From Patescibacteria group bacterium (GTDB lineage: Bacteria > Patescibacteriota > Patescibacteriia > JAXHNJ01): 64,000 nucleotides of DNA. Positions 15,711 to 63,774 of this stretch are shown piece by piece. The notes under the pieces are model-generated. The model did not search any database. It saw only the letters and a program-made list of their open reading frames with translations, and had not been told where the DNA came from. The translations under genes were made by a program, and so were the position numbers. Location: positions 18,741 through 82,740 of the forward strand of contig JBAZMP010000001.1 of the NCBI GenBank assembly GCA_041649715.1. The letters are read 5' to 3'. Within the stretch, counting starts at the first letter, position 1. Every line of letters starts with the position of its first letter.

Positions 15711-15778
15711 TTCAGTTAAGAAGGCAAGATAAAAGAAGTAGTTCTTTAACAACCAAGATAGAAATGGAGGGTTTTATC

Positions 15779-16894: not shown

Positions 16895-16915
16895 ACGATT
16901 AATCATTATTTCGAA

Positions 16916-16988
16916 GGGTTACTTGCATAATCTGCAGTAACCCTTTTTAATATTATAAAGAGGCCCCGCGACACCAGCGCCGCGGGGC
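16916..16988. terminator. pair of convergent intrinsic terminators
   Basis: First hairpin gggttacttgcataatctgcagtaaccc followed by T5. Second hairpin ggccccgcgacaccagcgccgcggggc, reading as the minus-strand terminator for the lysS-like gene. Confidence 0.5.
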
Positions 16989-16996
16989 TATTTAGC

Positions 16997-18445: not shown

Positions 18446-18564
18446 GAGGCTAACCTCCTGTTATGGTTTTTGAATGTGCCGCAGAGAAATTTATTTTCTC
18501 TGTTTCTTGCCTTAACTTATACCGTTTTATCGAAAATGTCAAGGGTTACTCCAGAAAGCATTAT

Positions 18565-19612: not shown

Positions 19613-19617
19613 AAAGT

Positions 19618-25205: not shown

Positions 25206-25253
25206 TTTAAGATTCAGAGAGTAGTAATCGGTCTTGTTTGGATAATATATATT

Positions 25254-26453
25254 TTATTTCCTTCCCGATTTTTTGATAATTTGAGCCACTCCTTTATAGG
25301 CGTTTACTTGTACCAAATCGCCGTTTTTTAAAATTTGAGTCGCATTTTTTGTCCCCACGAGGCAGGGTTTTTTCAGTTCGCGTGAGATTATGGCCGCATG
25401 GCAAGTTATGCCGCCTTCGTCCGTAATAATCGCACCAGCATTCTTAAGAAAGGGAGTCATTTGCGGATTGGTCATGCTCGTGACTAAAATATTGCCCTTT
25501 TTCACCGCCGTGGTGCCGCTCCAGGATAAGTGAATTATTACCTTACCAGTGGCAAGACCGGGGTAGGCGATATCGCCCCTGATTTTGCGGTTATCAATTT
25601 TTCGAAGTTTATTTTGCCAATAAATGAATTTGTTACCGGTATATAAATTCCATGCCCCATCTTTTTTGATAAAAACGCAGCCCTTTAACCTTTTTCTTAA
25701 CTCCCCCGTAGATACTGTTATTTCATCAGTGATAGCCTTTTCTACTTCCTCCTTTCTCATGGCGCTAGCAAGATTAATCGATAGCTTGGTTTTTTTGGCA
25801 ATATATTTTGTGAAAGAGTCATCAGTGACGTATGTTTCCGAGTCTTTATGTAGCTGTAATTTGATCTCTCCCATTCGTCCTAGCCTTTTCACGTATTTTT
25901 TTACTTGACCATTAGTGATTTCGTTTATTTTATGCGTAGATAAAATTTTAACCAATGCGTTTCTTGATGTTAATTTAAGAAGCTTAGCTTCAACTGCCTG
26001 CGAGAATGGCGGTTCGTAAAATCGGTATAATTTGCAGAATTTATCGTTTAACCGCAGAGATTTTTTCCATTCGGCTAGAACGTTTTTTGAATTAAGCCGT
26101 GGTTTTTTGTAGTTTTTAAGCTGGACGCTTAAATTTTTGGATTTGGCAATTAAAGAAGCGGAGAATTTGTCATTTAATAATCGGGAGCCCAAATAACGGC
26201 ATTGTTTTATGCTTAAGGGTGACAAATAGGCCCTAGTGATGTTGTTTTCGCGCAAAACGATAAAATCAACCTCGCCGTAAGTTTCATTGTTGTTAAAAAT
26301 CATGTCCAGGGTAAGAATATTGAACCCGGAATTAGAAAAATGAAGACTATATCTTTTGGCGTCTTGATTATTTTTTTGAGAGCGCATTTTATAAAGTAGT
26401 AATCGGTCTCGATTGGACAATATACATTTTATTTTTTTCGTAGGCCCATTCAA
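25254..26453 (-). CDS. PEP-utilizing-enzyme swivel domain protein, paralog 4
   Basis: 399 aa. C-terminal ...ILVTSMTNPQMTPFLKNAGAIITDEGGITCHAAIISREL. Confidence 0.7.
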   Translation of the reverse strand: MNGPTKKIKCILSNRDRLLLYKMRSQKNNQDAKRYSLHFSNSGFNILTLDMIFNNNETYGEVDFIVLRENNITRAYLSPLSIKQCRYLGSRLLNDKFSASLIAKSKNLSVQLKNYKKPRLNSKNVLAEWKKSLRLNDKFCKLYRFYEPPFSQAVEAKLLKLTSRNALVKILSTHKINEITNGQVKKYVKRLGRMGEIKLQLHKDSETYVTDDSFTKYIAKKTKLSINLASAMRKEEVEKAITDEITVSTGELRKRLKGCVFIKKDGAWNLYTGNKFIYWQNKLRKIDNRKIRGDIAYPGLATGKVIIHLSWSGTTAVKKGNILVTSMTNPQMTPFLKNAGAIITDEGGITCHAAIISRELKKPCLVGTKNATQILKNGDLVQVNAYKGVAQIIKKSGRK

Positions 26454-27327
26454 TATCCTGCGGTATGCCGTAGTGTTTTTCGATTTTTTGGCAGAGTTTA
26501 GCCAGGGATATTATTTGTTTGTCGCCAAGCTTTTGTTTTTCTTGCTGGCTGGCCGGCACAGATTTGTTCATATTTCCAGAGGGACCTTTAACAATCATTT
26601 TTCCCTGCTGACTGATGCTTTTTTCCTTGAGGGCAAAATTCTTTTTATCGATAATATAGGTGTCGGGAGTAATAATACCCCCGACGATCGCTTCGCCCAG
26701 GCCGTAGCCGGCTTCAATCACGATTTGGCCCCGATCTTTAGTCACTGGGTGGGCGGTGAAACAAATACCCGAGATTTCTGAATTAATCATTTTTTGGACG
26801 ACCACGGCGACTGCCACTTTTGTTTTACGCAGTTTTTTCTCAAAGCGGTAGGAGATGGCGCGGGGCGTAAATAGCGACGCCCAGCATTTTTTGACGCTGG
26901 TCAGCAGGTTTTTATTATCCACGTTGAGATAACTTTCTAATTCGCCGGCCCAGGAAGCAACGGAGGAATCTTCGGCGGTAGCGGAACTGCGCACCGCTAC
27001 ATATTTAGCCTTAAGATTTAAGAATTCTTTTTGTATTTCGCCTTTCATCTCCGGCGGAAATTCAAGCTTTAAAATTAAACCCCTGATTTTATCCGACGCT
27101 TGATTAACTGAATTAATATTTTTTAGGTTGATCTTATTTAACAAAGCTTCAATTTTCGTCCCCAGTTGGTTTTTTTCCACGAACTGGTCAAAAGCCGAAG
27201 CCAAAACGACAAAACCGGGAGGGACGGGAATGCCAGCCTGCGTCATTTCGCCTAAAGAAGCGCCCTTGCCGCCGGCAATGGCGGCGTCATTTTTGCCTAA
27301 ATATTGAAAATTTTTAACAAAGGCCAT
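26389..27327 (-). CDS. pyruvate phosphate dikinase/PEP synthase N-terminal ATP-grasp (PPDK_N) domain protein, stand-alone
   Basis: 312 aa. GGKGASLGEMTQAGIPVPPGFVV, VAVRSSATAEDSSVASWAGELESYLNV, EWAYEKNKMYIVQSRPIT. Matches the nucleotide-binding domain of PpsA/PPDK/RPH and lacks a swivel domain. Confidence 0.75.
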   Translation of the reverse strand: MAFVKNFQYLGKNDAAIAGGKGASLGEMTQAGIPVPPGFVVLASAFDQFVEKNQLGTKIEALLNKINLKNINSVNQASDKIRGLILKLEFPPEMKGEIQKEFLNLKAKYVAVRSSATAEDSSVASWAGELESYLNVDNKNLLTSVKKCWASLFTPRAISYRFEKKLRKTKVAVAVVVQKMINSEISGICFTAHPVTKDRGQIVIEAGYGLGEAIVGGIITPDTYIIDKKNFALKEKSISQQGKMIVKGPSGNMNKSVPASQQEKQKLGDKQIISLAKLCQKIEKHYGIPQDIEWAYEKNKMYIVQSRPITTL

Positions 27328-27328
27328 A

Positions 27329-28801
27329 TTATTTTGCCTTTTTAATTATTTTTACCAATCCATGATTAGCGTTTACGTCAATTAAATCTCCATCTGCCAG
27401 AGATCTTGTGGCGATCTGAGTCCCGGTAATGCAGGGGATATTTAATTCTCTGGAGACAATGGCGGCGTGACAGGTAATTCCGCCTTCATCCGTGATGACC
27501 GCCGCCGCCTTTTTCATAATTGAGACATATTCGGGGCGGGTCATAGAGGCCACAATCACGTCGCCGTTGTCCATTTTAGAAAAATCCTTTTGGTTTAGAA
27601 TAATCTTCGCGATACCAATAACTTTTCCGGGCGAGACGGTTGTTCCCCTGATTTCTGAAGCGGCAATGGTTTTTTCCAGAATTTCAAAGTATTCCTCGGC
27701 GATTGAACCAGAAACGACTTCAAGTTTCGTGGTTTTTCCCGCAAAAACAATGAGACCAATGTTAGCTCTTTTTTTAAGCTCGGCAATCGTTTTTTTATCG
27801 CGTTTTATAATCAGGGGTATTTCATCGGGGACAGCATATTTTAGAAGGTCGATGCCAATCCCAATTTCTTTTGATATTTTTTCAATTATTTCAATAAATA
27901 CATAATTGGCTATCTGGTTGTATTTTTTGCGATCATCGCGATACGTAGTTACCCAATTAAAAAAGTTTAAGAATCGTAAAGTATTTCCGCTTATGGCGTA
28001 TTTATTAATCAAGGCGTTTTTGTTTTTCTTTACTTCTTCAAATTTTTCCAGCCCGTTTATTATACTCTTTACTTCCGCCTGATTTTTTACTAATTCTTTT
28101 AACTTTTTGGAAAAATATTTTTCATCGAGATACTCCGCCTTTTCATAATCATTCTTAAGCCAGTAATAATTGTCAGAATGTTTATTGATTAATTTTTTAA
28201 CTTCAGGCGAGTCAATGCCTTTTTCTTTGGCAATTTTATAAATACTTGAAAGGTCTTTTTGCTCTTTCTGCAAATTGGATAGTTCATCCGGGCTTAGCAG
28301 CGTATTTACATCATTCTTGTCTAGTTTTTCTTTGGTAGGGCCGAAAATAAAATCAATAATTTGGCTTTCGAAAGGATCCAGCAAGTCGATGTATAATGAA
28401 TTTTCCCAAAATTTCATATTCCATTCTAAAAATGACTCGTATTCTTTAATAAAAGATCGTGAAATGACTTTGTTTTTGAGGATAGCGAGCCCTGTTTTTT
28501 CTATTTCTTTGGCCGCGAGATAACAATCATTTTTCAGAGTTTTGAAGAAATCATTATTATTTTTGAGCCGGACAAATATCTTTTTTACCTGCTCGAGCGT
28601 TAAAAAATAATCGAAATAATGATAAAAGGTAAAACCGGTTTTTGTTTTGAGAAAAGTGCCTAAATCATTGGGGAAATAAAAACCCGATTTTTTAAACATC
28701 CTTTCGGAAAGGGCTAAAAAAGGCATCCCGCAACATAAAGGAATTCCTGCCCCGGATTGTCGGTACCACTTGATCGTTTTTACCTTTTTTTTCGTAAGCA
28801 T
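27329..28801 (-). CDS. PEP-utilizing-enzyme swivel domain protein, paralog 3
   Basis: 490 aa. C-terminal ...VIVASMTRPEYVSIMKKAAAVITDEGGITCHAAIVSRELNIPCI. N-terminal ~380 aa is paralog-specific. Confidence 0.7.
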   Translation of the reverse strand: MLTKKKVKTIKWYRQSGAGIPLCCGMPFLALSERMFKKSGFYFPNDLGTFLKTKTGFTFYHYFDYFLTLEQVKKIFVRLKNNNDFFKTLKNDCYLAAKEIEKTGLAILKNKVISRSFIKEYESFLEWNMKFWENSLYIDLLDPFESQIIDFIFGPTKEKLDKNDVNTLLSPDELSNLQKEQKDLSSIYKIAKEKGIDSPEVKKLINKHSDNYYWLKNDYEKAEYLDEKYFSKKLKELVKNQAEVKSIINGLEKFEEVKKNKNALINKYAISGNTLRFLNFFNWVTTYRDDRKKYNQIANYVFIEIIEKISKEIGIGIDLLKYAVPDEIPLIIKRDKKTIAELKKRANIGLIVFAGKTTKLEVVSGSIAEEYFEILEKTIAASEIRGTTVSPGKVIGIAKIILNQKDFSKMDNGDVIVASMTRPEYVSIMKKAAAVITDEGGITCHAAIVSRELNIPCITGTQIATRSLADGDLIDVNANHGLVKIIKKAK

Positions 28802-28817
28802 AAATTGGCTTGTTATA

Positions 28818-30320
28818 TTATTTTCTGATTATTTTAATAATTCTATCTTCCAGACCAAATTCGACCAGATCGCCGTCTTTTAAGACTTTAGTCGCAATTT
28901 TAGTGCCGATAATACAGGGAATGTGCAATTCGCGGCTGACAATCGCCGCGTGGCAGGTGATGCCGCCTTCGTCGGTAATGATCGCTTTGGCTTTTTTCAC
29001 GGCCGGCATCAATTCGGGCCGGGTCATGCTGCAGACGATTATCTCTCCCTTTGTTATTTTGCTTATTTCGCTTGAAGACTGGATTATTTTTACGATTCCC
29101 CGAGCATAACCCTTGGAAGCAATATTGCCCCTGATAACGTTTTGAGTCAAATCGGCTGGCTCAGTAATAATACTTTTAACTTCATAAAGCTTTTGGCGGG
29201 GGATCGTTTCTACACGCGTACGAGTGCCGATAAAGCCGAATTTTTGTTTTCTTTCGGGCAATGATTTTAGCGGTTTTGTATCTTCAAAAATACTTGTTAT
29301 TTCATGTGGGGTAAGAAATTCAAGGTCAGACAATTTTAATTTCAGCCGTTTGGCGATTTGACCGTTTAAGATATGTAGCCAGTAATTCGCTTTCATATTG
29401 GCCATTTTGCGCAGGTCTTGCCAGAGAGTCGTCATTTCTACCAGCTTTACCAGGGTTTTTATCTCTTTGCCAAGTTTATATTTGCCGATGATTTTATCCT
29501 TTATTTTTTTGTCTTTCGCATTTTTCTTCAGGGATGCATTTAGGGATATTTTATGCAATTCTTTTTTAAAATAAGCGAGATCCAGATTTCTATTTCTGGC
29601 GTAGCTGCTTTTTATCCAATAATAATTCTGGAAGTATTCATCATAAGCTTTTGCAAAATTTCGCTTCCGCGCGTGAAGCTTATGCTTTTTGGCTAAGAAT
29701 GCCAGAAATTCTTTTTCTTTTTCTAGAAAAGATTTTTCCGCGGGGTTAGTCAGTTCTGAGACAATTTGCGGGACGAGTTTATCGTTCTTTATTTTTTTCG
29801 AAATAATATCTGGAAAATATTCATCCATTAAAAAACCGAAACCGTCGGTAATCAAGGCGAGACTGTATTCTTTGACATAGGTCCGGTAAAATTCGGCATA
29901 AAGTCCGGTTAATTGATGATTTGTCAGTTTTGGTAACTTCGTATTTAATAAGCTGATGCAAAGTCGATTGAATGATGCAAAATAATTTTTCCAGGTATTA
30001 TGGATGATTAATGCCCGTCCCTTTTCGGCAGCCGATAAAAAATATCGGCCTACTTCCAGCGCCTGATTTTTTTCCATGGCATAGGTGGCATGACCGTGAA
30101 TAACCAGGCAGACTAGGGGAGTGTAATCGCGGAGGAAGTGCTTGGCTAATTCCAGAGTGGCGGATTCCACAACCGGATAAATCGTGGCCACTGTCGCTTC
30201 GCCTGACTGGACGATAAATTCATGACCTTTGAGTAGATTGACAATATTGTTCGTTTTTCGCGCCCCTTTTTTTCTAGCGGAAATTATTTTTCTACTCATT
30301 TCCTTAATATTATTTTTCAT
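28818..30320 (-). CDS. PEP-utilizing-enzyme swivel domain protein, paralog 2
   Basis: 500 aa. C-terminal ...IIVCSMTRPELMPAVKKAKAIITDEGGITCHAAIVSRELHIPCI. Shares the YYWIK/YYWLK central motif with paralog 3. Confidence 0.7.
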   Translation of the reverse strand: MKNNIKEMSRKIISARKKGARKTNNIVNLLKGHEFIVQSGEATVATIYPVVESATLELAKHFLRDYTPLVCLVIHGHATYAMEKNQALEVGRYFLSAAEKGRALIIHNTWKNYFASFNRLCISLLNTKLPKLTNHQLTGLYAEFYRTYVKEYSLALITDGFGFLMDEYFPDIISKKIKNDKLVPQIVSELTNPAEKSFLEKEKEFLAFLAKKHKLHARKRNFAKAYDEYFQNYYWIKSSYARNRNLDLAYFKKELHKISLNASLKKNAKDKKIKDKIIGKYKLGKEIKTLVKLVEMTTLWQDLRKMANMKANYWLHILNGQIAKRLKLKLSDLEFLTPHEITSIFEDTKPLKSLPERKQKFGFIGTRTRVETIPRQKLYEVKSIITEPADLTQNVIRGNIASKGYARGIVKIIQSSSEISKITKGEIIVCSMTRPELMPAVKKAKAIITDEGGITCHAAIVSRELHIPCIIGTKIATKVLKDGDLVEFGLEDRIIKIIRK

Positions 30321-31119
30321 AAGATTCGGCTAGTTCTTCAAGCTTGTCCATATCTACGCTATATTCTTGTCCGCGGAAATTAACGGATAATTTCTTTTCG
30401 CCCTTTTCGTCAATATTGAGGGAAAATTCCATGCCCTCGGCAAAATTAAGCGCGCCCCCGATTTCTTCCAGCTTTTCGAAACCGGTAATTTCCCTATCCT
30501 TATCTTTTCTGATCAAGATCTCTTTTAACAGCGCTTCGGGCAGGCCCTGGTGCGTCACATTAACTAGGTCGATATTTGAACCGGAATACAGTCTTTTCGC
30601 CATTCGTGAATATCGATTTAGAACATAGGCTAAAGACTCGGCCACTTCATGGGGCGATAAAGTATCTGGGTCGGGTCTTTCTTTGCCGAAGTTTAAATAC
30701 CAATCGGTGGCCGTGTCGGGATCATTTTTTGCCAACTCATTAAATTTTTTCATGAATTCCTCGGATAAAGGCGGCATGCCTATTTCGGCCCTAATTCGGG
30801 TATTTAACTTTTTATCGTGCGGTGCTCCTTCGATAACTTTTTCTACGGTTTCCAGCGCTCTTTTTACCGGACTGGAATAGCCCTTGATCGCGTCTCTTTT
30901 TTCCAGATCTTCTCCAAATTTAGTAGCTTGTTGTTTGCCTTCTTCTGTTAAAGTTCCGGTTAGATCTTTTGCTCCGTGCCGCATAAAAAATACATGCATT
31001 TCGACATTACTTCCAAATCGGTTTTCCGGTGTTTCTAGATGACTGATTCGTGGCTCATTTTCCATATTTTTATATTTACAATTGCTCAAATTTTTCAGCC
31101 GCCAGCTTTTTGAATTCAT
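30310..31119 (-). CDS. histidine phosphatase superfamily protein (phosphoglycerate-mutase-like)
   Basis: 269 aa. FFMRHGAKDLTGTLTEEGKQQA carries the RHG catalytic motif. Confidence 0.6.
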   Translation of the reverse strand: MNSKSWRLKNLSNCKYKNMENEPRISHLETPENRFGSNVEMHVFFMRHGAKDLTGTLTEEGKQQATKFGEDLEKRDAIKGYSSPVKRALETVEKVIEGAPHDKKLNTRIRAEIGMPPLSEEFMKKFNELAKNDPDTATDWYLNFGKERPDPDTLSPHEVAESLAYVLNRYSRMAKRLYSGSNIDLVNVTHQGLPEALLKEILIRKDKDREITGFEKLEEIGGALNFAEGMEFSLNIDEKGEKKLSVNFRGQEYSVDMDKLEELAESYEK

Positions 31120-31666
31120 TAAAAAAGAAAGAATCTAAAGATTTTTTCAGCAGTTTTAGAATTGCGGTCTTGTTTTTGAACCTCTTTTTTACTTTTTCGA
31201 TTCGCTCGGCGGAAAATCTGTCCAAATGATCAATGTCGTGGAACAATTTTTTGTTATGAGTATTATAAGCCTTGTTGAGGTTAATGCCGGTTAGCGTGTC
31301 GGCATCGTGCAGGCTGATGATGTCGACTATTTCTTTTATTTTTTCTTTTGGGTAATGGAGGGAAGTTAAAATGGTTTTAGCGATTTTCGCTCCGACGAGC
31401 ATATGCACTAATTTGCCGTTAGTTAGCACTTCCGAGCCGGCGACCCATTTAAAGTGTTCTTCCAGGAGGCCGGCATGGCCGATATCATGCATCATGGCGA
31501 CCGGTATTAAGATATCTTGGTCCATTTTCAATTTCCCGCGATAGTTAGTGATAATATTTACAGTTTCTTGGGCATGGCCCAAGTCATCCGGCCGCCCAGC
31601 CCTTAATAAGGGAAGACTTTTTTTCCATATTTTCCGGTATTTCGCCGGAGCGATGAACTTTTTCAT
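31076..31666 (-). CDS. HD-domain phosphohydrolase
   Basis: 196 aa. H...HD...H...D metal ligands (HAQETVNI, MMHDIGH, LHDAD). Confidence 0.7.
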   Translation of the reverse strand: MKKFIAPAKYRKIWKKSLPLLRAGRPDDLGHAQETVNIITNYRGKLKMDQDILIPVAMMHDIGHAGLLEEHFKWVAGSEVLTNGKLVHMLVGAKIAKTILTSLHYPKEKIKEIVDIISLHDADTLTGINLNKAYNTHNKKLFHDIDHLDRFSAERIEKVKKRFKNKTAILKLLKKSLDSFFFNEFKKLAAEKFEQL

Positions 31667-31670
31667 AAAA

Positions 31671-33098
31671 TTATAAGATAATTTTTATAATTCCATTGTT
31701 AGCGTCAATTTCCACTTGTTGGCCGTCTTTCAGAGCCTTGGTCGCCATTTTCGTCCCGATAATGCAGGGTATATTCAATTCCCGGCTGACGATAGCGGCG
31801 TGGCAGGTGATGCCGCCTTCATCCGTAATGATGCCGATCGCTTTTTTGAGCAGAGGGACGAATTCTGGTCGCGTCATGCTGGTTACCAGAATTTCTCCTT
31901 GTTTAAATTTAGAAAAATCTTTAGCGCTTAGAACGATTTTCACCGTACCTTTAACATGGCCTCGATTAGCGACATTGCCTTTTATTTCCGAGATTTTTCC
32001 GCTTAAATTAAATATTTCTTTATAGATATTATTCTTTGCTTTTTCAAAGTCAGCGTATTCGATTTCCGGGCCCTTTTTGCCAAAGAAGATGATAAAGCCC
32101 TTTTTCCTTCGTGTTAATTCCGCTTTGAATTTTTTTTGCTTGTAATGCTTCGTAACAAAATCTTTATACATGGTGTATATAATATTCTTTTCGGGTAAAT
32201 CTAGCCTTAAAAACATTTCCCGGATAGCATTGGAGAGCACGGCGTTTAGCTTATAAACGGATTCTTTACGCACATCTCTGATGTAGATGGCGATTTTTAT
32301 ATAATCAAATAAATCTCTCGTTTTTTTTGTTAAGGTTCGGCGATATTTTTCTACCAAAATTTTGTTTTGCCTAATCTGTTTTTGTAGCTTATTCTCTTCA
32401 TTTTTGATTCTTTGTAAGCCACCCAGTTCTTGAAGGTTTTGACGGGCTAATTTCAAGCAATCTTTTAGTTTTGGCGTATAAAGATAGTTGGCAAAAACCC
32501 ACTGGTTTTCTTTGTTTTTTGATTTATTAAAATCTATGAGCCCTGCCTGGCTTTTGTAAACAAAGGGAGTGAAATCGGTTAGCTGACTTAGATGCATAAA
32601 CTTCTGAAAATTTATCTTTGTTTTCATCCGGTCAAAATATTCTTTAACAATATGCTCATCCAGGGCCTCAGAAAACAAGGTGATAACCTGCCAATCCCTT
32701 AATTTTTCAAAAGTATTTATGATCAATTGTTCAAGCTCGCGAAGATTTAACATTTTTAACCTTGAAGGATAATATTGGCGGTAAATATGGTTAAAATCTT
32801 GGTCGATTTTTTTAAAATCAGCAAGCTCGGTAAATTTCTTTCTATTTTTCAGATATTTTTCCAAAGCTTGTTTGGTGGAAGCGGTATATTGGTTATTATT
32901 AAAAAATCCAATACCCCTTTTTCCGCCCAAAAGTAAGGCTAAAGAACCAAAATCACCCCTAAAATATTTTTTCTTAAGAGGCGAATATATAAGAAGACAA
33001 GAAGTTCCCCAAACCAAAGAGGAGAAATTTCCTTCGTGTTTGGTAATTTCCCGGTCCTTGTTGTCTTTAATGAATTTTTCTATTAATTTGTATTTCAT
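31671..33098 (-). CDS. PEP-utilizing-enzyme swivel domain protein, paralog 1
   Basis: 475 aa. C-terminal ...ILVTSMTRPEFVPLLKKAIGIITDEGGITCHAAIVSRELNIPCI. The annotated ATG abuts the tRNA-Ala 3' end, so the true start may be an internal Met. Confidence 0.65.
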   Translation of the reverse strand: MKYKLIEKFIKDNKDREITKHEGNFSSLVWGTSCLLIYSPLKKKYFRGDFGSLALLLGGKRGIGFFNNNQYTASTKQALEKYLKNRKKFTELADFKKIDQDFNHIYRQYYPSRLKMLNLRELEQLIINTFEKLRDWQVITLFSEALDEHIVKEYFDRMKTKINFQKFMHLSQLTDFTPFVYKSQAGLIDFNKSKNKENQWVFANYLYTPKLKDCLKLARQNLQELGGLQRIKNEENKLQKQIRQNKILVEKYRRTLTKKTRDLFDYIKIAIYIRDVRKESVYKLNAVLSNAIREMFLRLDLPEKNIIYTMYKDFVTKHYKQKKFKAELTRRKKGFIIFFGKKGPEIEYADFEKAKNNIYKEIFNLSGKISEIKGNVANRGHVKGTVKIVLSAKDFSKFKQGEILVTSMTRPEFVPLLKKAIGIITDEGGITCHAAIVSRELNIPCIIGTKMATKALKDGQQVEIDANNGIIKIIL

Positions 33099-33100
33099 TT

Positions 33101-33177
33101 TGGTGGACCCGAGCGGATTCGAACCGCTGATCTCCTCATTGCAAATGAGGTGTTCTAGCCAGCTGAACTACGGGCCC
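33101..33177 (-). tRNA. tRNA-Ala (anticodon TGC), CCA encoded
   Basis: Cloverleaf gggcccg/tagttcagctggctagaac/cctca-tttgcaa-tgagg/T-arm ggttcgaatcc. G3:U70 Ala identity pair. Confidence 0.85.
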
Positions 33178-33183
33178 AAAAGT

Positions 33184-33453
33184 TTATTCCGAAATAGTCG
33201 TCGTCTGGTCTAAAGAGGAAGAGGTAGACTTGAATATTTTACTGATACATCCGCCGAGGCAACCGGTTAGGGCCAAAAAAGTGCCGATAATAATGATCAG
33301 GCCGATAAGCTTGATAAATATCTTGGTCCCGCCCTCGCTGCCCAGGTGAGCTTCCGCCCAGTCGATCGGGCCGGTAAAATTATAAAACCACTCCGTTTTG
33401 ACAACGAGGAGAGAACCCACAATAATGGCGATGCCTCCAATAACGTAGTTCAT
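33184..33453 (-). CDS. small membrane protein (2 TM), hypothetical
   Basis: 89 aa. IGGIAIIVGSLLVV and LIGLIIIIGTFLALTG hydrophobic spans. Confidence 0.4.
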   Translation of the reverse strand: MNYVIGGIAIIVGSLLVVKTEWFYNFTGPIDWAEAHLGSEGGTKIFIKLIGLIIIIGTFLALTGCLGGCISKIFKSTSSSLDQTTTISE

Positions 33454-33469
33454 ATATTTGTTATGGTGG

Positions 33470-33590
33470 GCAACGAGGGTTTTAAAACCCTCGACCTTAC
33501 GGACCCGCCCGCCTTGACTGCCATCAAGGCAGTCAAGGCGGGTGTAAACCGTACGCTCTAACTCCCGAATGTTTTCGGGACGTCGGGACT
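33470..33590 (-). pseudogene. degenerate tRNA-Val(UAC)-like copy carrying a 39-nt perfect-hairpin insertion between anticodon-loop positions 37 and 38
   Basis: Minus strand reads gttagagcg-tacgg-tttaca[cccgcc...gggcggg]t-ccgta-aggtc-gaggg-ttttaaaa-ccctc. D-arm and anticodon arm are tRNA-like. The T-loop is degenerate and there is no acceptor stem. Insert spans 33504-33542. Confidence 0.4.
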
Positions 33591-33839
33591 AGTCGCCCAC
33601 TATTTTATTGATAATCTTTGCGCTTTTCTTACCTTTTTGGGATTTTTCTCTTTTATAAGCCAACCTTCTATCCAGATATTTTTCTAATCGGAGGAGAATA
33701 AACGGTCGTCGATGTTGAGTAGCTTTCGATAAGCCTCAATTATGTTCTCAAAAAACATTTCTTGAAGTTATTTGTTACGCCAATATAATATTAATTATCT
33801 TTTTGGCTTTTTATTATATAGACATGATACATATTACCG

Positions 33840-33913
<74 letters not shown>

Positions 33914-33923
33914 AGAATTATAA

Positions 33924-34006
33924 TGCGGACGGAGGGAGTTGAACCCTCATGCCAAAAATGGCCAGGAGCCTCAGTCCTGCGCGTATACCAATTCCGCCAC
34001 GTCCGC
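33924..34006 (-). tRNA. tRNA-Leu (anticodon GAG), long variable arm
   Basis: gcggacg/tggcggaattggtatacgcgc/cagga-ctgaggc-tcctg/long variable arm gccatttttggc/T-arm gagggttcaactccctc. Confidence 0.8.
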
Positions 34007-34048
34007 ATGAAAATAGATTTTTGTTAAAAAACTCAACACTGGATTTAG

Positions 34049-34509: not shown

Positions 34510-35433
34510 TCAAGTCTGTCCCTTTAATTCATTTAAAATCGTTGAAAGCTCCGGAGGCAGTTTTTGGCTGAATTCCAACCACTGATTGTTCAGGCTATAA
34601 AAACCCAGTTTGTCGGCGTGCAGAAAAATGCGATTGAGCCGAATTTTTTCCTTTATTTTCTTGTTTTTGTAGAGTTGATCACCGACAATCGGAACCCCCA
34701 GGGCCTTCAAGTGGACGCGAATCTGGTGGGTGCGGCCGGTATATGTTCTTATTTCAAGATAAGTATAATTTGAATAGCGCTTGATGACCCTATAATGGGT
34801 TATCGCTTTTTCACCCGTTTGGTTTTGAGGCCGGGCGACAAATTTGCCTTCTTTGCCGCGGGCAATGGGAAAATCGATCAATCCTTCTTCTTTTATCAAC
34901 CGGCCGGTCACTAAAGCCAGATATTCCTTTTTGACCAGGTGGGACTGGAACAGATTTTTCAGATGGATAAATGATTTTTGGTTTTTTGCCACGACCATCA
35001 GGCCGGAAACGTCTTTATCCAGGCGATGGACGATGCCCGGTCGGCTAGGGTCTTCCCCGACGGAAAGCAAGGAAGGCAAGTGGGCGAGCAGGCGGTTGAC
35101 CAGCGTTTTTTCCCGGCAACTTTCCGCCGGATGAACAGCCAGGCCCGCTTCTTTATTAACGACCAAAAAATCGTCGTCCTCAAAAACGATTTGGAGAGGT
35201 TTTTTTTCGTCAGGCGTAAGGTCGATTTTGGCCGGCTCTTCCGGAGTAATTTCCACTTGATCGCCCCCTTTTAGGAAAAGGTGGACCGGGGGATTTTTTC
35301 CGTTGACCAAGACCATCCCCTTTTTGATCAATTTTTGCAGGTGGGCGCGGGAATATTGCGGATATTGCCGGCATAAGAATTTATCCAGCCTCTCTTTGGC
35401 GGCGTCGTTTTCCACGTTTAGCGTCTGTTTCAT
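34510..35433 (-). CDS. rluD: RluA-family 23S rRNA pseudouridine synthase (RluD-like) with N-terminal S4 domain
   Basis: 307 aa. RLDKFL S4 domain. [16 protein letters not shown] catalytic Asp motif. Confidence 0.85.
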
Positions 35434-36914
35434 TTTAGGAGTTTTTTAACTAGGCTCATCGCTTCTTTTTTCGTGTTTATTTCCTTATTAAGCTGTTTTT
35501 CCCGCGCGGCGGCCAGCAGTCCGCCGATCAAGGGGCCTTGAGGCAGGTCAAAATTTTTCATAATCTCGTGGCCGTTGATCAGGGGCGGCGGCAGGCTTTT
35601 TCTTTTTTTATCCAGGGCTTTCAATTCCTCAAGCCTTTTCAGCATTCTTTTCAGATGGCGGGTGTTGGGTTTTCCTTTTCGCGGCAGACTGGCGAGAATA
35701 TCGGCGAGCATGATCCTGACCAGTTTTTCGCCCGGCACGAGAGGGTTAAAAAAAAGTTTTTCCACGGTGCTCGCTTTCAAGTGATACGGATCGTCAATGA
35801 TCAAAAGCATATGCCGGCCGACCAGCCAAACGACGTTTTCTTTTTTTATTTCACCCGTGCTTTCCAGCTTTAGGCGGTTGATGATCCTTTCGGCGATTTG
35901 CGCGCCCTGGCGGTCGTGCCGGTTAAAGCGGATGCGGTCCACGCCGTCTTTTTCCGGCGTCTGCAGGGTCGGCACTTTGCCGATATCGTGGAAAAGAAGG
36001 GCCAGGATGATCTCCAGGTCGTCCGTTCTTTCCGGCACGAATCTTAAAAATTCCGGGGAATTCAGCTTTTCCAAAGCGAGGCGGGTGTGGGCGTAGACGT
36101 CGCCTTCGGTGTGGAATTGCGGCGGTTGCGGCGTTTTTTTCATCGCATCCATTTCCGGCAGCAAAATCGGCAAAGCGCCGCTCAAGTTGAACAGATCAAG
36201 CGTTTCCAGCGGATTGGCTTTCAGGGCTTTCAAGAATTCTTTGGCGATGCTTTCCCGCGGCACCACTTTATCTTTCAGATGTTTTATCAGTTTCTTTATC
36301 GCCCGCCAGGTTTTTCTCTCGATTTGAAAATTTAGCTGAACGGCAAATCTTAAGGCCCGAAGCAGCCGGGAATAATCCTCTCTGAATCTTAGTTCCGGCC
36401 GGCCGACCGCCCGGATTTTTTTGGCGGCGAGATCAGCCAGTCCGCCCTGGGGGTCGATTAATCTTTTTTCCTTCACCTCGAAGGCCATGGCATTGATGGT
36501 GAAATCGCGCCGGGACAGATCCTTTTCAATGGGAAGTTTGTAGTCTGATTGAATTTTAAAATCTTTATACCCGCCGGTCAAACCCAGAGAATGTTCGGTC
36601 CGCGGAAGGGCGATATCCACGCTTTCTATCCGGCTGTTTCTCGGGATGAACTTAAAAACCCCGAAAGATCTGCCGACCAAATTGACTTTGCCTATTTTTT
36701 TCAAGAAATTTTCCAAGCTTTTTGGCGGCACGTTTCCGACCACAAAATCGTAATCTTTGGTTTTTCTTTTCAGAATGATATCCCTGACGGCGCCGCCGAC
36801 CAGGTAAACTTTTGCTTTCGGAAAATTCTTGATGATTTTGTTTACAAAACTTAAACCCGGCTCATTTTTCAGGGCTTTTAAAAAGATGTCGTTTCTGGCG
36901 GTAATCTTGGTCAT
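35430..36914 (-). CDS. cca: CCA-adding enzyme / tRNA nucleotidyltransferase with HD domain
   Basis: 494 aa. KVYLVGGAVRDIIL ... DFTINAMA polymerase-beta head. LLFHDIGK HD domain. Confidence 0.8.
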   Translation of the reverse strand: MTKITARNDIFLKALKNEPGLSFVNKIIKNFPKAKVYLVGGAVRDIILKRKTKDYDFVVGNVPPKSLENFLKKIGKVNLVGRSFGVFKFIPRNSRIESVDIALPRTEHSLGLTGGYKDFKIQSDYKLPIEKDLSRRDFTINAMAFEVKEKRLIDPQGGLADLAAKKIRAVGRPELRFREDYSRLLRALRFAVQLNFQIERKTWRAIKKLIKHLKDKVVPRESIAKEFLKALKANPLETLDLFNLSGALPILLPEMDAMKKTPQPPQFHTEGDVYAHTRLALEKLNSPEFLRFVPERTDDLEIILALLFHDIGKVPTLQTPEKDGVDRIRFNRHDRQGAQIAERIINRLKLESTGEIKKENVVWLVGRHMLLIIDDPYHLKASTVEKLFFNPLVPGEKLVRIMLADILASLPRKGKPNTRHLKRMLKRLEELKALDKKRKSLPPPLINGHEIMKNFDLPQGPLIGGLLAAAREKQLNKEINTKKEAMSLVKKLLK

Positions 36915-39718: not shown

Positions 39719-39947
39719 GTGGGCAGTACAAGACTCGAACCTTTCTGACCTTTACGATGTCAATTCTTCGATGCGACTCAGAACAGGCTTCACGCTCTAA
39801 ATTTCTCTGATTGGTGGGCGGCACAAGACTCGAACTTGTGACCTTTACGACCCGCCCGCCTTGACTGCCATCAAGGCAGTCGGGCGGGTGTCAACCCTTC
39901 GGCTTCGCCTCAGGGCAGGCTCTACGCTCCAAGTTTTTAGTCGTGAG
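39719..39947 (-). repeat. two tandem degenerate tRNA-Val(GAC) partial copies; the second carries the same 38-nt hairpin insertion between positions 37 and 38
   Basis: Both copies share tgggc(a/g)g(t/c)acaagactcgaac...gacctttacga with the intact downstream tRNA-Val. The first copy carries a different 28-nt insertion where the 5' anticodon stem should be and lacks a 5' acceptor. The second copy has the cccgcccgccttgactgccatcaaggcagtcgggcggg insert at 39850-39887 and also lacks a 5' acceptor. Confidence 0.45.
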
Positions 39948-40021
39948 TGGGCGGCACAAGACTCGAACTTGTGACCTTTACGATGTCAACGTAACGCTCT
40001 AACCAACTGAGCTAGCCGCCC
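39948..40021 (-). tRNA. tRNA-Val (anticodon GAC)
   Basis: gggcggc/tagctcagttggttagagc/ttacg-ttgacat-cgtaa/acaagttcgagtcttgt/gccgccca. Confidence 0.85.
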
Positions 40022-40051
40022 ACTCGCAACTAAATATATTGTAAATTTTTA

Positions 40052-40127
40052 TGGTGCGCCTGGGGGGATTCGAACCACCGACCTTCCGCTTATAAGGCGG
40101 ATGCTCTAACCATTGAGCTACAGGCGC
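40052..40127 (-). tRNA. tRNA with anticodon TAT (tRNA-Ile(UAU)-like), CCA encoded
   Basis: gcgcctg/tagctcaatggttagagc/tccgc-cttataa-gcgga/T-arm ggtgg-ttcgaat-ccccc (one U:C mismatch)/caggcgc-a-cca. Confidence 0.7.
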
Positions 40128-54400: not shown

Positions 54401-54551
54401 AAAATACAGAGTTGACGCCTATCTCACAATTTAGGATAAGAAAGTAAACCCGCGGCCAAGAAAAAGCAGCGGGTTTTTTTATCCACAATAATAGTATTTG
54501 ACAATCAAATTCATTTCCTATAACATAAGATAACTGTTGTTCAAAAAATAA

Positions 54552-54627
54552 GTGGGCGTAGCTCAACGGTTAGAGCGCCTGACTCTAAATCAGGATGTTG
54601 TTGGTTCAAATCCAATCACCCACTCCA
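54552..54627 (+). tRNA. tRNA with anticodon CTA (amber-reading), CCA encoded
   Basis: gtgggcg/ta/gctc-aacggtta-gagc/g/cctga-CTCTAAA-tcagg/atgtt/gttgg-ttcaaat-ccaat/cacccac-t-cca. One C6:A67 mismatch in the acceptor stem. Confidence 0.7.
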
Positions 54628-54649
54628 GATTTTCTTGCTCTTTAGCGTT

Positions 54650-54724
54650 GTCCCAGTAGCTCAGCGGTAGAGCGCCTGACTCTAAATCAGGCAGTCGGAG
54701 GTTCAACTCCTCTCTGGGACTCCA
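54650..54724 (+). tRNA. tRNA with anticodon CTA (amber-reading), second copy, CCA encoded
   Basis: gtcccag/ta/gctc-agcggta-gagc/g/cctga-CTCTAAA-tcagg/cagtc/ggagg-ttcaact-cctct/ctgggac-t-cca. Perfect acceptor stem. D-arm and anticodon arm are identical to the first copy. Acceptor and T arms differ. Confidence 0.75.
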
Positions 54725-54866
54725 AATTTTGAGGCTGGCAGGAAAAGCGATAAAAAAACCGCAGACTCTCCGCTAATCCTGGTCAGCCTTTTTCTATTGG
54801 CAAAACCAGGAAAATCTAGTAAAATAATAGGAAAGGGCGATTGTCGCCTTTTCTCATTTTTACGTT

Positions 54867-59503: not shown

Positions 59504-59836
59504 ATGGCAAAGTACAAAGATCAGGAATTTGTGGAATACGTGGTTAAAGCCTTAGTGGACAAACCCGAGGATGTCAAAACCGATCGGGCTGTCGATGAGA
59601 TGGGCGTCTTAATCACCCTGAAAGTAAACCAGGAAGATTTGGGCCAGGTCATCGGCCGTCAGGGTCAAACCGCGAAATCCATCCGCACGCTTCTCCGTGT
59701 CGTAGGCGCCAAGAATCATGCCCGCGTCAACCTCAAGATTTATGAACCGGAGGGCAGCCGCCGACCGCCAAGAATGGTCCGCGAAGATTCAGCCGCGAAT
59801 GAAGATACGTCCGCGGTAGACGACTTAAAACTTTAG
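59504..59836 (+). CDS. KH-domain RNA-binding protein (UPF0109, rpsP-trmD operon member)
   Basis: Start MAKYKDQEF, with a GGAAG RBS (the ORF track starts earlier, at 59459). VIGRQGQTAKSIRTLL carries the GxxG KH loop. Confidence 0.7.
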   Translation: MAKYKDQEFVEYVVKALVDKPEDVKTDRAVDEMGVLITLKVNQEDLGQVIGRQGQTAKSIRTLLRVVGAKNHARVNLKIYEPEGSRRPPRMVREDSAANEDTSAVDDLKL

Positions 59837-62072: not shown

Positions 62073-62287
62073 ACGAAATCAATTAAACATACTTTAGCAA
62101 GTGGTGGAGAAATGAAAGGAGGATGTTTGAGGACCAGCATGTTCTTTTTATAAAATAACAGCTGATGTATCCTATCTTCTCCTTTCATTCTTCCATCACT
62201 TGTGTAAAGTCAACAAAATTTTTCACTTTTTGAAAAGTTTACCGCGAGCTATTGAGTGGCTTGCGTTTAATCTTTTCAAATTTTACT

Positions 62288-63774
<1,487 letters not shown>

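What the first reader, a model, noticed from the sequence alone, without database searches (positions are those of the whole stretch)
54552..54724. Two tandem tRNAs with CUA anticodon (amber suppressor-type) next to TAG-terminated genes
Both tRNAs fold into canonical cloverleaves with C32-U33-[C-U-A]-A37-A38 anticodon loops, standard D and T arms, and encoded CCA. They share identical D and anticodon arms but have different acceptor and T stems, so they are not a simple duplication.

TAG is clearly used as a stop in this window (lysS-like, pyrF and the REC gene all end in TAG). This therefore looks like dedicated amber-reading tRNAs coexisting with TAG stops, rather than a complete codon reassignment.

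They could support programmed read-through, decode in-frame TAG in specific genes (Pyl-like logic), or be mobile-element or phage derived. The nearby unusual aaRS genes make a charging partner conceivable, but that is pure inference.
Basis: seen in the sequence. Interest (0 to 1): 0.7.

Follow-up and report, generated by a model that had tools for sequence, protein, structure and literature searches.

The report
Two amber-suppressor tRNAs in CPR bacterium
Two neighbouring, well-formed tRNA genes in an uncultured Patescibacteria genome carry the anticodon that reads the stop codon UAG, yet the genome still uses UAG as an ordinary stop, so they look like natural stop-codon suppressors in a fast-changing accessory tRNA operon, not a new genetic code.

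Summary
Positions 54552-54627 and 54650-54724 (+) are two canonical cloverleaf tRNAs (Rfam 68.8 and 70.3 bits) with a CUCUAAA anticodon loop (CUA), U73 and encoded CCA. They sit behind a sigma-70-like promoter that is 91% conserved in a sister genome.

The window is standard code. TAG ends 7 of 53 genes. One of these TAGs replaces a TAA found in three relatives. Making TAG a sense codon merges no ORFs, whereas a recoded phage contig used as a control changes dramatically.

A sister MAG (SMC 85% identical) has the homologous operon: an odd tRNA-like gene, then Glu-UUC, a Lys-like CUA tRNA and a GUG tRNA. The window's two genes keep the acceptor and T arms of the first and last of these, but both carry the CUA arm. 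The second has a tRNA-Arg(CCU)-like body. More distant relatives lack the operon at this locus.

These are not tRNA-Pyl, not phage-resident and not a sequencing error. The nearby aaRS-like genes belong to a cassette widespread in this phylum, with no CUA tRNA nearby elsewhere, so the charging-partner idea has no support.

Best reading (confidence about 0.5): expressed natural amber suppressors, probably Lys-inserting, that cause limited read-through. Their physiological role is unknown.

The parts
54449..54480 (+). Hairpin (CCCGC...GCGGG) followed by a T run. It is a terminator-like end of the upstream response-regulator gene and separates that gene from the tRNA operon.
   Evidence: Read directly from the sequence. 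The automatic scan did not call it because the loop exceeds 8 nt.
54498..54526 (+). Sigma-70-type promoter-like site, TTGACA-17 nt-TAACAT, ending 25 nt before tRNA 1.
   Evidence: 10 of 12 matches. The stretch 54498-54551 is 49/54 (91%) identical to the sister genome L002, compared with 81% for a nearby coding gene and 32% for the DNA downstream of the operon.
54552..54627 (+). tRNA 1. Anticodon CUA, U73, encoded CCA, one C6-A67 mismatch. Its 5' flank, acceptor arm and T arm match the odd first tRNA-like gene of the L002 operon.
54628..54649 (+). 22-nt spacer between the two tRNAs, partly conserved with L002 (the motif CTTTAGCG precedes the last tRNA in both).
54650..54724 (+). tRNA 2. Anticodon CUA, U73, encoded CCA. 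It is the positional counterpart of the GUG-anticodon tRNA of L002. Its acceptor and T arms are tRNA-Arg(CCU)-like.
54830..54864 (+). Hairpin plus T-rich tail just before the smc start codon (54867). It could be the operon's terminator or an smc leader. A similar hairpin precedes smc in L002.
   Evidence: 11-pair stem; L002 sequence.

Best explanation
These are two real, co-transcribed elongator-type tRNA genes with a CUA anticodon, that is, natural amber-suppressor-type tRNAs. They lie in the chromosome of a standard-code Patescibacteria (CPR) bacterium. They form a small accessory tRNA operon with its own conserved promoter. At this locus the operon is seen only in a narrow subclade, and it evolves by moving anticodon arms between different tRNA bodies. 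Here one amber arm sits on two unrelated bodies, one of them tRNA-Arg(CCU)-like.

Inferred mechanism:
1. The pair is transcribed as one precursor. It is then processed, and no CCA addition is needed.
2. It is aminoacylated by a synthetase that reads the anticodon. This is most probably LysRS, because the arm is tRNA-Lys-like and differs from a CUU Lys anticodon loop only at position 36 (the sister genome's CUA tRNA is Lys-like overall). U35 is the main LysRS determinant (from general knowledge, not tested here).
3. The charged tRNAs compete with release factor 1 at UAG. This gives partial read-through that adds 1-16 residues to TAG-terminated proteins before the next in-frame stop.

TAG remains a stop codon. 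The physiological benefit, if any, is not established.
For: - Canonical tRNAs with CUA in the loop.
- The cloverleaf is maintained by compensatory changes across operon members: 98.4% paired, 13 pairs changed on both sides. Pair 2:71 is U-A in both window tRNAs and C-G in the other four, including the L002 GUG counterpart of tRNA 2. Pair 27:43 of the CUA arm is C-G in the window and G-C in L002.
- The 7-nt loop CUCUAAA is identical in the window (twice), L002 and L011.
- The promoter TTGACA-17-TAACAT is 91% conserved with L002, while the DNA downstream is unalignable.
- CCA is encoded, and a CCA-adding enzyme gene is also present.
- The L002 CUA tRNA is Lys-like: its best E. coli match is tRNA-Lys.
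- Standard code in the window: 7 of 53 genes end in TAG, no ORFs merge when TAG is read as sense, and the longest ORF goes from 914 to 915 codons. In the positive control L029 the longest ORF jumps from 191 to 1851 codons.
- In-frame stops follow TAG after 1-16 codons.
Against: - TAG stops are not depleted: 6 of 21 genes around the locus, compared with 3/22, 4/21 and 3/23 in relatives.
- One TAG stop (KH-domain gene) is newly derived from a TAA kept in three relatives. This would be unexpected if suppression were efficient.
- The discriminator is U73, not the A73 typical of tRNA-Lys.
- tRNA 1 has a C-A mismatch in the acceptor stem.
- The bodies are chimeric, so recognition by any synthetase is uncertain.
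- BLAST of the two window tRNAs against E. coli gives Asn and Thr as best hits, not Lys.
- The operon is absent at this locus in relatives with SMC 58-79% identical, so it is dispensable.
- There are no expression, charging or proteome data. The RF1 and MiaA status of the genome could not be checked.
Confidence: 0.5

Rival explanations
1. The genes are relics of tRNA remolding and are neutral or nearly inactive. The operon is a decaying or shuffling accessory array. Gene conversion copied one anticodon arm onto a neighbouring body. The products are poorly charged or poorly used, so they have little effect on termination.
For: - The identical 24-nt block in the two genes fits a recent conversion tract.
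- The bodies are chimeric: Arg(CCU)-like acceptor and T arms without the Arg-type D loop.
- Sister and analogous operons contain clearly aberrant members: an L002 tRNA-like gene with a hairpin in the D arm and an 8-bp/5-nt anticodon arm, and L011 members with G33 or an irregular loop.
- TAG stops are undepleted and one is newly created.
- The operon is missing at this locus in relatives.
Against: - Both genes keep every stem paired, apart from one C-A in tRNA 1, and all universal tRNA positions. They score as high as the housekeeping tRNAs.
- Compensatory changes and a 91% conserved promoter indicate purifying selection since the split from L002.
- The CUA loop is conserved in two genomes while its stem covaries.
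Confidence: 0.2
2. The operon has a mobile-element or phage-related role. It was acquired from a TAG-recoded phage or plasmid of this lineage, or it serves such an element. Examples would be supplying amber decoding for a resident recoded prophage, or being a remnant of one.
For: - Most tRNAs found with the same anticodon-arm pattern are on phage contigs: a 468-kb contig with phage-like gene content (L012), IMG/VR tRNA arrays (L006/L026), and L029, which is clearly TAG-recoded.
- The tRNA 2 body matches phage tRNA-Arg(CCU) genes and lone tRNA 3' halves on viral contigs, which may be attachment sites.
- The operon sits in a rearranged, variable spot upstream of smc. It is flanked by different accessory genes in the window (REC) and in L002 (pilin, Nudix).
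Against: - There are no integrase, phage or plasmid genes next to it, and the flanks are core genes syntenic with relatives.
- No TAG-rich ORFs occur in about 84 kb.
- Exact-pattern scans of viral contigs with the tRNA 1 T arm and 3' acceptor sequence and with the L002 CUA arm found nothing.
- The promoter looks like a host promoter and is conserved vertically.
Confidence: 0.15
3. This is a dedicated recoding system with Pyl-like logic. The CUA tRNAs would be charged by a specialised synthetase, for example the LysRS-like paralog or SrmL of the nearby cassette. They would then insert a standard or modified amino acid at in-frame UAG codons of a few genes elsewhere in the genome.
For: - A full-length LysRS-fold paralog with a divergent but structurally retained N-terminal OB domain is encoded in the same window.
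- A PheS-related 'mystery ligase' is also present. Some members of its family carry a ferredoxin-fold anticodon-binding domain.
- The cassette also encodes a PLP decarboxylase and a methyltransferase, which could in principle make a modified amino acid.
- Only about 84 kb of a genome of at least 608 kb could be inspected for in-frame TAG.
Against: - The cassette family is widespread (about 75 LysRS-like clusters and over a hundred close SrmL clusters), whereas the CUA operon is confined to a narrow subclade at this locus.
- In L041, L042 and L043 the same seven-gene cassette has no CUA tRNA within 10 kb.
- The tRNAs are 37 kb from the cassette.
- No in-frame TAG was found.
- The tRNAs lack any unusual architecture of the kind that makes tRNA-Pyl or tRNA-Sec orthogonal.
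Confidence: 0.05
4. The tRNAs have a non-translational role. They would serve as decoys or spares against anticodon nucleases, or as aminoacyl donors for a tRNA-dependent transferase, rather than decoding UAG on the ribosome.
For: - The operons carry variable anticodons on shared scaffolds (UUC, CUA and GUG in L002; CUA twice here). Glu, Lys and His are classical anticodon-nuclease targets (general knowledge).
- The discriminators and bodies are atypical.
- An archease gene, which belongs to the RtcB tRNA-repair context, lies nearby.
Against: - No nuclease, transferase or defence gene is linked to the operon in the window, L002 or L011.
- The tRNAs have normal T arms and all the features expected of ribosomal substrates.
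- This reading is purely speculative.
Confidence: 0.07

Closest known systems
Suppressor tRNA(CUA) genes of TAG-recoded bacteriophages (Lak, crAss-like and others; Borges et al., bioRxiv 10.1101/2021.08.26.457843; metagenomic phage suppressor tRNAs in PMC12636597)
   Same: They are canonical cloverleaf tRNAs with a CUA anticodon, often found in tRNA clusters and derived from ordinary isoacceptor bodies. The same CTGACTCTAAATC anticodon arm occurs on phage contigs found here (L004, L006/L026, L012, L029).
   Different: Here the genes sit between core chromosomal genes of a bacterium, behind a vertically conserved promoter. No phage genes or TAG-interrupted ORFs are nearby. The phage control L029 is visibly recoded, and the window is not.
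Classical bacterial amber suppressor alleles (supE, supF, Lys- and Trp-derived suppressors)
   Same: An elongator tRNA whose anticodon has become CUA coexists with RF1-dependent TAG termination and gives partial read-through. The anticodon loop is one base away from Lys-CUU (or Trp-CCA).
   Different: The classical alleles are single-base mutants of a redundant canonical gene, selected in the laboratory. Here there are two wild genes in tandem with chimeric bodies (one Arg-CCU-like), U73 discriminators, and conservation of the CUA loop in a sister genome.
tRNA-Pyl / PylRS system
   Same: A CUA anticodon coexists with TAG stops. ARAGORN therefore labels the genes 'tRNA-Pyl'.
   Different: None of the architectural hallmarks of tRNA-Pyl is present, apart from a possible G26-C44 pair in tRNA 2. 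No pylS or pylBCD genes are present: the best PylS-C-terminal score is 27 bits against a cut-off of 178, and it falls on the LysRS-like protein.
tRNA gene remolding (alloacceptor or anticodon shifts) and accessory tRNA arrays
   Same: Positional counterparts in two close genomes carry different anticodon arms on conserved acceptor and T arms (GUG versus CUA). One arm is shared by two different bodies.
   Different: Described remolding events usually replace one sense anticodon with another. Here the recruited anticodon is a stop-codon reader, and it occurs twice.
Stop-codon reassignment in CPR bacteria (UGA to Gly in Gracilibacteria and Absconditabacteria)
   Same: It occurs in the same superphylum, and a tRNA reads a former stop codon.
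   Different: Those lineages use UGA in frame throughout their genes and have lost RF2. Here TAG is an ordinary stop at normal frequency and never occurs in frame in the DNA inspected.

Membership tests
Canonical elongator tRNA (Rfam RF00005) | Cloverleaf with 7/4/5/5-bp stems and a 7-nt anticodon loop, scoring above the family threshold | tested here: met
   The genes score 68.8 and 70.3 bits against a gathering score of 29. ARAGORN calls both. Across 6 operon members, 98.4% of pair cells are paired and 13 pairs are compensatory.
Canonical elongator tRNA (Rfam RF00005) | Universal positions U8, A14, G18G19, U33, purine 37, T54-Psi55-C56 (UUC), A58 | tested here: met
   Read directly from the sequences.
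Amber suppressor tRNA (functional definition) | Anticodon CUA at positions 34-36 | tested here: met
   The loop is C32 U33 C34 U35 A36 A37 A38 in both genes.
Amber suppressor tRNA (functional definition) | Expressed, aminoacylated and able to read UAG on the ribosome | not testable with these tools
   There is only indirect support: a conserved promoter, encoded CCA, and structural covariation.
tRNA-Pyl | Six-bp anticodon stem | tested here: inconclusive
   tRNA 1 has 5 bp with G26/A44. tRNA 2 can add a G26-C44 pair in the minimum-energy fold.
tRNA-Pyl | Three-nt variable loop, one nucleotide between the acceptor and D stems, a short D loop without G18G19, and a T loop without the T-Psi-C motif | tested here: not met
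   Both genes have a 5-nt variable loop, U8-A9, a 7-8-nt D loop with GG, and a UUCAAAU or UUCAACU T loop.
tRNA-Pyl | pylS and pylBCD genes present | tested here: not met
   None was found among the window proteins scanned. The PylS C-terminal model scores 27 bits against a cut-off of 178.
tRNA-Lys | Anticodon UUU or CUU | tested here: not met
   The anticodon is CUA. The loop differs from a Lys-CUU loop only at position 36.
tRNA-Lys | A73 discriminator and a Lys-type body | tested here: not met
   Both window genes have U73. Their best E. coli matches are tRNA-Asn and tRNA-Thr. By contrast, the L002 CUA tRNA best matches tRNA-Lys, and the L011 CUA tRNA has A73.
Phage-encoded suppressor tRNA of a recoded phage | Located in a phage or prophage genome whose genes contain in-frame TAG | tested here: not met
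   The flanks are pyrF, pyrE-like, REC and smc, syntenic with relatives. ORF coverage is 0.90 in the standard code and 0.94 with TAG as sense, and the longest ORF is unchanged. In the recoded control L029 coverage goes from 0.56 to 0.92 and the longest ORF from 191 to 1851 codons.
Genome-wide UAG reassignment | TAG absent or rare as a stop and present in frame at conserved positions | tested here: not met
   7 of 53 genes end in TAG. The KH-gene TAG aligns with TAA stops of three orthologs. No ORFs are merged across a TAG.
Genome-wide UAG reassignment | Loss of release factor 1 | not testable with these tools
   prfA is not in the accessible 84 kb, and the rest of the 608-kb contig could not be fetched.
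Cognate pair with the SrmL / LysRS-like cassette | Co-occurrence or linkage of the aaRS-like genes with a CUA tRNA across genomes | tested here: not met
   The same seven-gene cassette occurs in L041, L042 and L043 with no CUA tRNA within 10 kb. The family is widespread, whereas the operon is subclade-specific at this locus. Genome-level co-occurrence could not be computed.

The most novel reading that the evidence does not exclude
The two CUA tRNAs are the tRNA partners of the conserved but uncharacterised CPR cassette in the same window: a LysRS-fold paralog, the PheS-related 'mystery ligase' SrmL, a PLP decarboxylase, a methyltransferase and two dCTP-deaminase-like proteins. In this lineage the cassette would charge them with lysine or a modified amino acid. 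That would create a natural, lineage-specific genetic-code expansion or an ambiguous UAG (stop plus amino acid), caught at an early stage of codon capture.
Probability: 0.03. Interest if true: 0.9.

Novelty: new member of a known kind. Interest (0 to 1): 0.4.

Why it matters
Natural, chromosomally encoded stop-codon suppressor tRNAs in free-standing standard-code bacteria are rarely documented beyond a gene-finder label. Here there is a case with comparative evidence: a conserved promoter, compensatory changes, and a conserved CUA loop in a sister genome.

If the tRNAs are active, this Patescibacteria lineage tolerates constitutive ambiguity at 13-29% of its stop codons. That is the state theory postulates as the intermediate in stop-codon reassignment, and it occurs in a superphylum that has already reassigned UGA in other branches.

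The operon also shows how such tRNAs can arise, by grafting one anticodon arm onto other tRNA bodies. It also offers compact natural amber-suppressor scaffolds for genetic-code-expansion work.

If the tRNAs are inactive, the locus is simply an example of tRNA remolding in an accessory array.

Tried and rejected
- Sequencing error or mis-fold of the anticodon: rejected. Two copies, the covariance-model alignment and an independent sister genome all agree.
- tRNA-Pyl: rejected on architecture and on the absence of pyl genes.
- Genome-wide or local TAG reassignment: rejected for the accessible DNA. The candidate TAG-joined ORFs at 33184-33735 and 28818-30512 were translated, and their upstream parts look like non-coding sequence.
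- Phage residence: no phage genes were found. Exact-pattern scans of viral contigs with the tRNA 1 T arm and 3' acceptor sequence and with the L002 CUA arm returned nothing. The tRNA 2 body pattern hit only tRNA-Arg(CCU) genes and tRNA 3' fragments.
- Exact 22-mer of the anticodon arm in GTDB species genomes: 0 hits.
- aaRS partner: the cassette neighbourhoods in three contigs from two other genomes have no CUA tRNA.
- Isotype assignment by BLAST against annotated E. coli and phage tRNAs: ambiguous for the window tRNAs (Asn, Thr, Lys, Asp) and informative only for L002 (Lys).
- Shorter extensions after TAG than after other stops: median 8 codons against 18 (TAA) and 10 (TGA), one-sided p = 0.02, n = 7. 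The comparison is confounded by in-frame downstream genes, so it is treated as a hint only.
- Literature searches for SrmL, 'mystery ligase', and CPR plus CUA or suppressor tRNAs found nothing relevant.
- Fetching independent assemblies of the locus through the REC protein returned only the same contig.
Full report
**Observation**

ARAGORN finds seven tRNAs in the window. Two of them lie at exactly the reported coordinates, 54552-54627 and 54650-54724 on the + strand, and both have anticodon cta. The 'tRNA-Pyl' label is only ARAGORN's name for that anticodon.

The Rfam tRNA covariance model scores them 68.8 and 70.3 bits against a gathering score of 29, the same range as the window's Ala, Val, Leu and Ile tRNAs. 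For the second gene, the printed alignment places CUCUAAA in the seven-base anticodon loop. The first gene's alignment was not printed, but it has the identical arm.

The sequence shows the universal tRNA positions, U73 and an encoded CCA in both genes. The two share an identical 24-nt block, TAGAGCGCCTGACTCTAAATCAGG, which covers the 3' D stem and the whole anticodon arm. Their acceptor and T arms differ. tRNA 1 has one C6-A67 mismatch.

**Where it is**

The window is part of a 221-kb ENA contig (ERZ27247363 k141_1757489). The same proteins occur on a 608-kb contig of an NCBI 'Patescibacteria group bacterium' MAG.

The surrounding genes are ordinary chromosome: gyrA, rpmF, nusB, rnc, pyrF, a pyrE-like gene, a receiver-only response regulator, then the two tRNAs, then smc, a T2SS-type ATPase, rpsP, a KH-domain gene, trmD, an MFS transporter and the 16S rRNA.

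A TTGACA-17-TAACAT promoter-like site ends 25 nt upstream of tRNA 1. A hairpin with a T run closes the upstream gene.

**Status of TAG**

- Of 53 curated genes, 35 end in TAA, 11 in TGA and 7 in TAG. The TAG-terminated genes are the LysRS-like gene, an LD-carboxypeptidase, a small ORF, nusB, pyrF, REC and the KH gene.
- Treating TAG as sense merges no substantial ORFs in the window, in the 10 kb upstream, in the 3.5 kb downstream or in the sister locus. The two marginal candidates do not look coding upstream of the TAG.
- ORF coverage barely changes (0.90 to 0.94), and the longest ORF goes from 914 to 915 codons. A CUA-tRNA-bearing contig found during this work (L029) goes from 0.56 to 0.92, with its longest ORF rising from 191 to 1851 codons. 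This shows that the test detects real recoding.
- TAG is not depleted compared with relatives: 6 of 21 genes here, against 3/22, 4/21 and 3/23.
- The TAG of the KH gene aligns exactly with a TAA stop in three orthologs, followed by a conserved terminator. It is therefore both a true stop and a recent TAA-to-TAG change.
- After TAG, the next in-frame stop comes 1-16 codons later. This is shorter than after TAA or TGA (p = 0.02), but n = 7 and the comparison is confounded.

**Comparative anatomy**

The closest available genome is L002 (JBDRMK010000015, SMC 85% identical). It has a homologous operon 1.65 kb upstream of smc.

The promoter-to-first-gene stretch is 49/54 identical (91%). A nearby coding gene is 81% identical, and the DNA after the operon is essentially unalignable.

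The L002 operon has four genes:
1. A tRNA-like gene with a 25-nt hairpin inserted in the D arm and an 8-bp/5-nt anticodon arm.
2. A UUC tRNA with an atypical body and U73.
3. A CUA tRNA with G73.
4. A GUG tRNA with G73 and no encoded G-1.

The window's tRNA 1 shares its 5' flank, acceptor stem and T arm with the first of these. tRNA 2 shares its spacer motif, acceptor stem and T arm with the last (82-85% identity outside the anticodon arm, 59% inside it). Both window genes carry the D and anticodon arms of the CUA type.

Across the six aligned tRNAs, the cloverleaf is 98.4% paired. Thirteen pairs have changes on both sides, and no shuffle reaches any of the five measures. The seven-base loop CUCUAAA is identical in all four CUA genes, while pair 27:43 of its stem switches from C-G to G-C. 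These are marks of selection on structure and on the amber anticodon.

Relatives with SMC 58-79% identical have pyrF, a pyrE-like gene, a methyltransferase (plus a pilin-like gene in L038), or other genes, directly before smc, with no tRNA there. At this locus the operon is therefore confined to a narrow subclade. The locus itself is rearranged between genomes: REC lies upstream of the operon here, whereas in L002 a pilin lies upstream and a Nudix gene downstream.

**Origin of the parts**

- The L002 CUA tRNA best matches tRNA-Lys of E. coli.
- The anticodon arm CUGA-CUCUAAA-UCAG is the Lys type with U36 changed to A. It is also one change away from Trp-CCA, but the 31-39 A-U pair is Lys-like. 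This comparison rests on my own knowledge of reference tRNAs.
- The acceptor and T arms of tRNA 2, and of the L002 GUG tRNA, are nearly identical to tRNA-Arg(CCU) genes of phages and to lone tRNA 3' halves found on viral contigs. These halves may be attachment sites, which was not checked. The Arg-type D loop and anticodon are gone.
- The window tRNAs give ambiguous best hits in E. coli and phage collections: Asn, Thr, Lys and Asp.

The genes are therefore chimeras. This fits tRNA remolding by recombination or gene conversion inside a small array.

**Wider occurrence**

A degenerate anticodon-arm pattern found no exact relative in GTDB species genomes. It found 4 viral and 28 metagenomic stretches, of which about 20 are CUA tRNAs.

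Several are on phage or phage-like contigs: a 468-kb contig with phage-like gene content (L012), IMG/VR tRNA arrays (L006/L026), the recoded L029, and short contigs where the tRNA sits beside a PTH2-like ORF (PTH2 confirmed only for L015).

At least two are cellular:
- L011 carries MurC, MnmA, ComEC and an Asp/Asn-type synthetase.
- L020 carries Pth.

In both, the CUA tRNA closes an operon of atypical tRNAs: G33, an irregular loop, an 89-nt 'Phe-AAA', and a type-II body. Accessory operons of odd tRNAs that include an amber reader thus recur, but I could not establish how often.

**The proposed synthetase partner**

The gene at 15764-16894 matches NCBIfam NF051887, 'PheS-related mystery ligase SrmL' (408 bits, cut-off 300). 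The convergent gene at 16997-18445 is a LysRS-like protein that scores below every LysRS cut-off.

The LysRS-like protein belongs to a tight family of about 482-residue proteins that are 49-77% identical to it (one outlier at 40%). True LysRS are at most 36% identical. Its AlphaFold model (pLDDT 82.8) aligns over its full length with LysRS structures, and DSSP shows an OB-like beta-barrel at residues 42-133.

Both genes lie in a seven-gene cassette: LD-carboxypeptidase, PLP decarboxylase, methyltransferase, two dCTP-deaminase-like genes, LysRS-like, SrmL. The cassette is repeated in the same order in three contigs from two other Patescibacteria genomes, with no CUA tRNA within 10 kb. The cassette family is widespread, whereas the CUA operon is not.

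Co-occurrence therefore gives no support to a pairing, although genome-level statistics could not be computed.

**Mechanism and rivals**

What is shown:
- two intact, selected tRNA genes with CUA
- a conserved promoter
- encoded CCA
- TAG used as a genuine stop
- no in-frame TAG in about 84 kb

What is inferred:
- co-transcription and processing
- charging by an anticodon-reading synthetase, LysRS being most likely
- competition with RF1 that produces short C-terminal extensions

I put this at about 0.5. The main doubt is that an efficient suppressor should select against TAG stops, and none is seen.

The rivals are:
- a nearly inactive product of remolding (0.2)
- a role for, or origin from, a recoded mobile element (0.15)
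- a non-translational role (0.07)
- a dedicated recoding system with a special synthetase (0.05)

**Comparison and verdict**

The genes work like classical or phage amber suppressors, but they are not members of the tRNA-Pyl family. The variable loop, the 8-9 spacer, the D loop, the T loop and the pyl genes all fail the test. They are also not phage-resident, and they are not part of a reassigned code.

I rate this a new member of a known kind: natural suppressor-type tRNAs. Two features stand out. They are chromosomal in a standard-code CPR bacterium, and they arose by grafting one amber arm onto two different tRNA bodies. Interest is 0.4. The finding is real and tidy, and moderately surprising to a tRNA or genetic-code specialist, but there is no evidence of recoding or of a new mechanism.

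**Limits**

- The rest of the 608-kb genome, including RF1, the full tRNA set and possible in-frame TAGs, could not be read.
- Nothing here measures expression or charging.

Noticed in passing
window 15764-22673 (also L041 5771-12676, L042 5862-12665, L043 2812-9666): A conserved seven-gene cassette of unknown function in Patescibacteria. Its genes are an LD-carboxypeptidase, a LysA-like PLP decarboxylase (below cut-off), a methyltransferase, two dCTP-deaminase-like genes, a LysRS-fold paralog (NCBI name 'amino acid--tRNA ligase-related protein') and the convergent PheS-related 'mystery ligase' SrmL. The two ligase-like genes appear to share contigs in dozens of genomes, judging from matching contig lengths in the two hit tables. 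This may be more novel than the tRNAs themselves.
   Followed up: partly
L002 1337-1450: The first gene of the sister operon is tRNA-like. It has a 25-nt hairpin inserted in the D arm and an 8-bp stem with a 5-nt loop in place of a normal anticodon arm. ARAGORN does not call it, and Rfam aligns only part of it (20 bits).
   Followed up: partly
L011 7604-7858; L020 1054-1630: Two cellular contigs carry operons of atypical tRNAs that end in a CUA tRNA. The atypical members are a Gly-like body with an irregular 16-nt anticodon arm, a 'Pro-AGG' with G33, an 89-nt 'Phe-AAA', and a type-II body not called by ARAGORN. This suggests a recurring kind of accessory tRNA operon.
   Followed up: partly
window 40052-40127 (and L041 3419-3494): A tRNA-Ile with anticodon UAU is present. 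This implies that AUA is decoded without lysidine (TilS) in this lineage.
   Followed up: no
window 24168-33098: This is a cluster of five paralogous proteins that end in a PEP-utilizer mobile domain. There is also a separate PPDK_N (ATP-binding) ORF that overlaps the next ORF by 65 nt. It looks like an expanded, split PEP-synthase or rifampicin-phosphotransferase-like family.
   Followed up: no
window 59834-59836: The KH-domain gene ends in TAG, whereas L002, L037 and L038 all have TAA at the aligned position. This is a recent TAA-to-TAG change in a genome that carries amber-reading tRNAs.
   Followed up: yes
L029 (Ga0071330_1040281), whole 8.4-kb locus: The contig carries a CUA tRNA and is clearly TAG-recoded: the longest ORF rises from 191 to 1851 codons when TAG is read as sense. 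It is probably a recoded phage and was used here as a positive control.
   Followed up: partly
L015 248-649, L018 902-1252, L030 118-432: Short phage-like contigs have a CUA tRNA next to a small ORF. The L015 ORF matches PTH2 peptidyl-tRNA hydrolase (31.6 bits). The L018 and L030 ORFs look similar to it at the N terminus by eye but give no Pfam hit.
   Followed up: partly
window 62283-63772 and L001 19147-19351: The 16S rRNA gene is followed by tRNA-Ile(GAU) and tRNA-Phe(GAA) and then by protein genes. No 23S gene lies within 3.8 kb, so the rRNA genes appear to be unlinked.
   Followed up: no
window tRNAs at 33101-34007 and 39947-40127; L001 19147-22477: The genome mixes tRNA genes with encoded CCA (Ala, both Ile, Pro and the two CUA tRNAs) and without it (both Val, Leu, Phe, Gly). 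A CCA-adding enzyme gene lies at 35430-36914.
   Followed up: no
L052 8847-9257 (about 800 bp upstream of the window start): An archease gene is present. Archease is the usual activator of the RtcB RNA ligase, which acts in tRNA repair and splicing.
   Followed up: no
L046, L048, L049, L051 (IMG/VR contigs): These viral contigs carry only the 3' half of a tRNA-Arg(CCU), from the anticodon loop to the acceptor end. They may be attachment-site fragments, though their position within the contigs was not checked. The sequence is nearly identical to the 3' half of window tRNA 2.
   Followed up: partly
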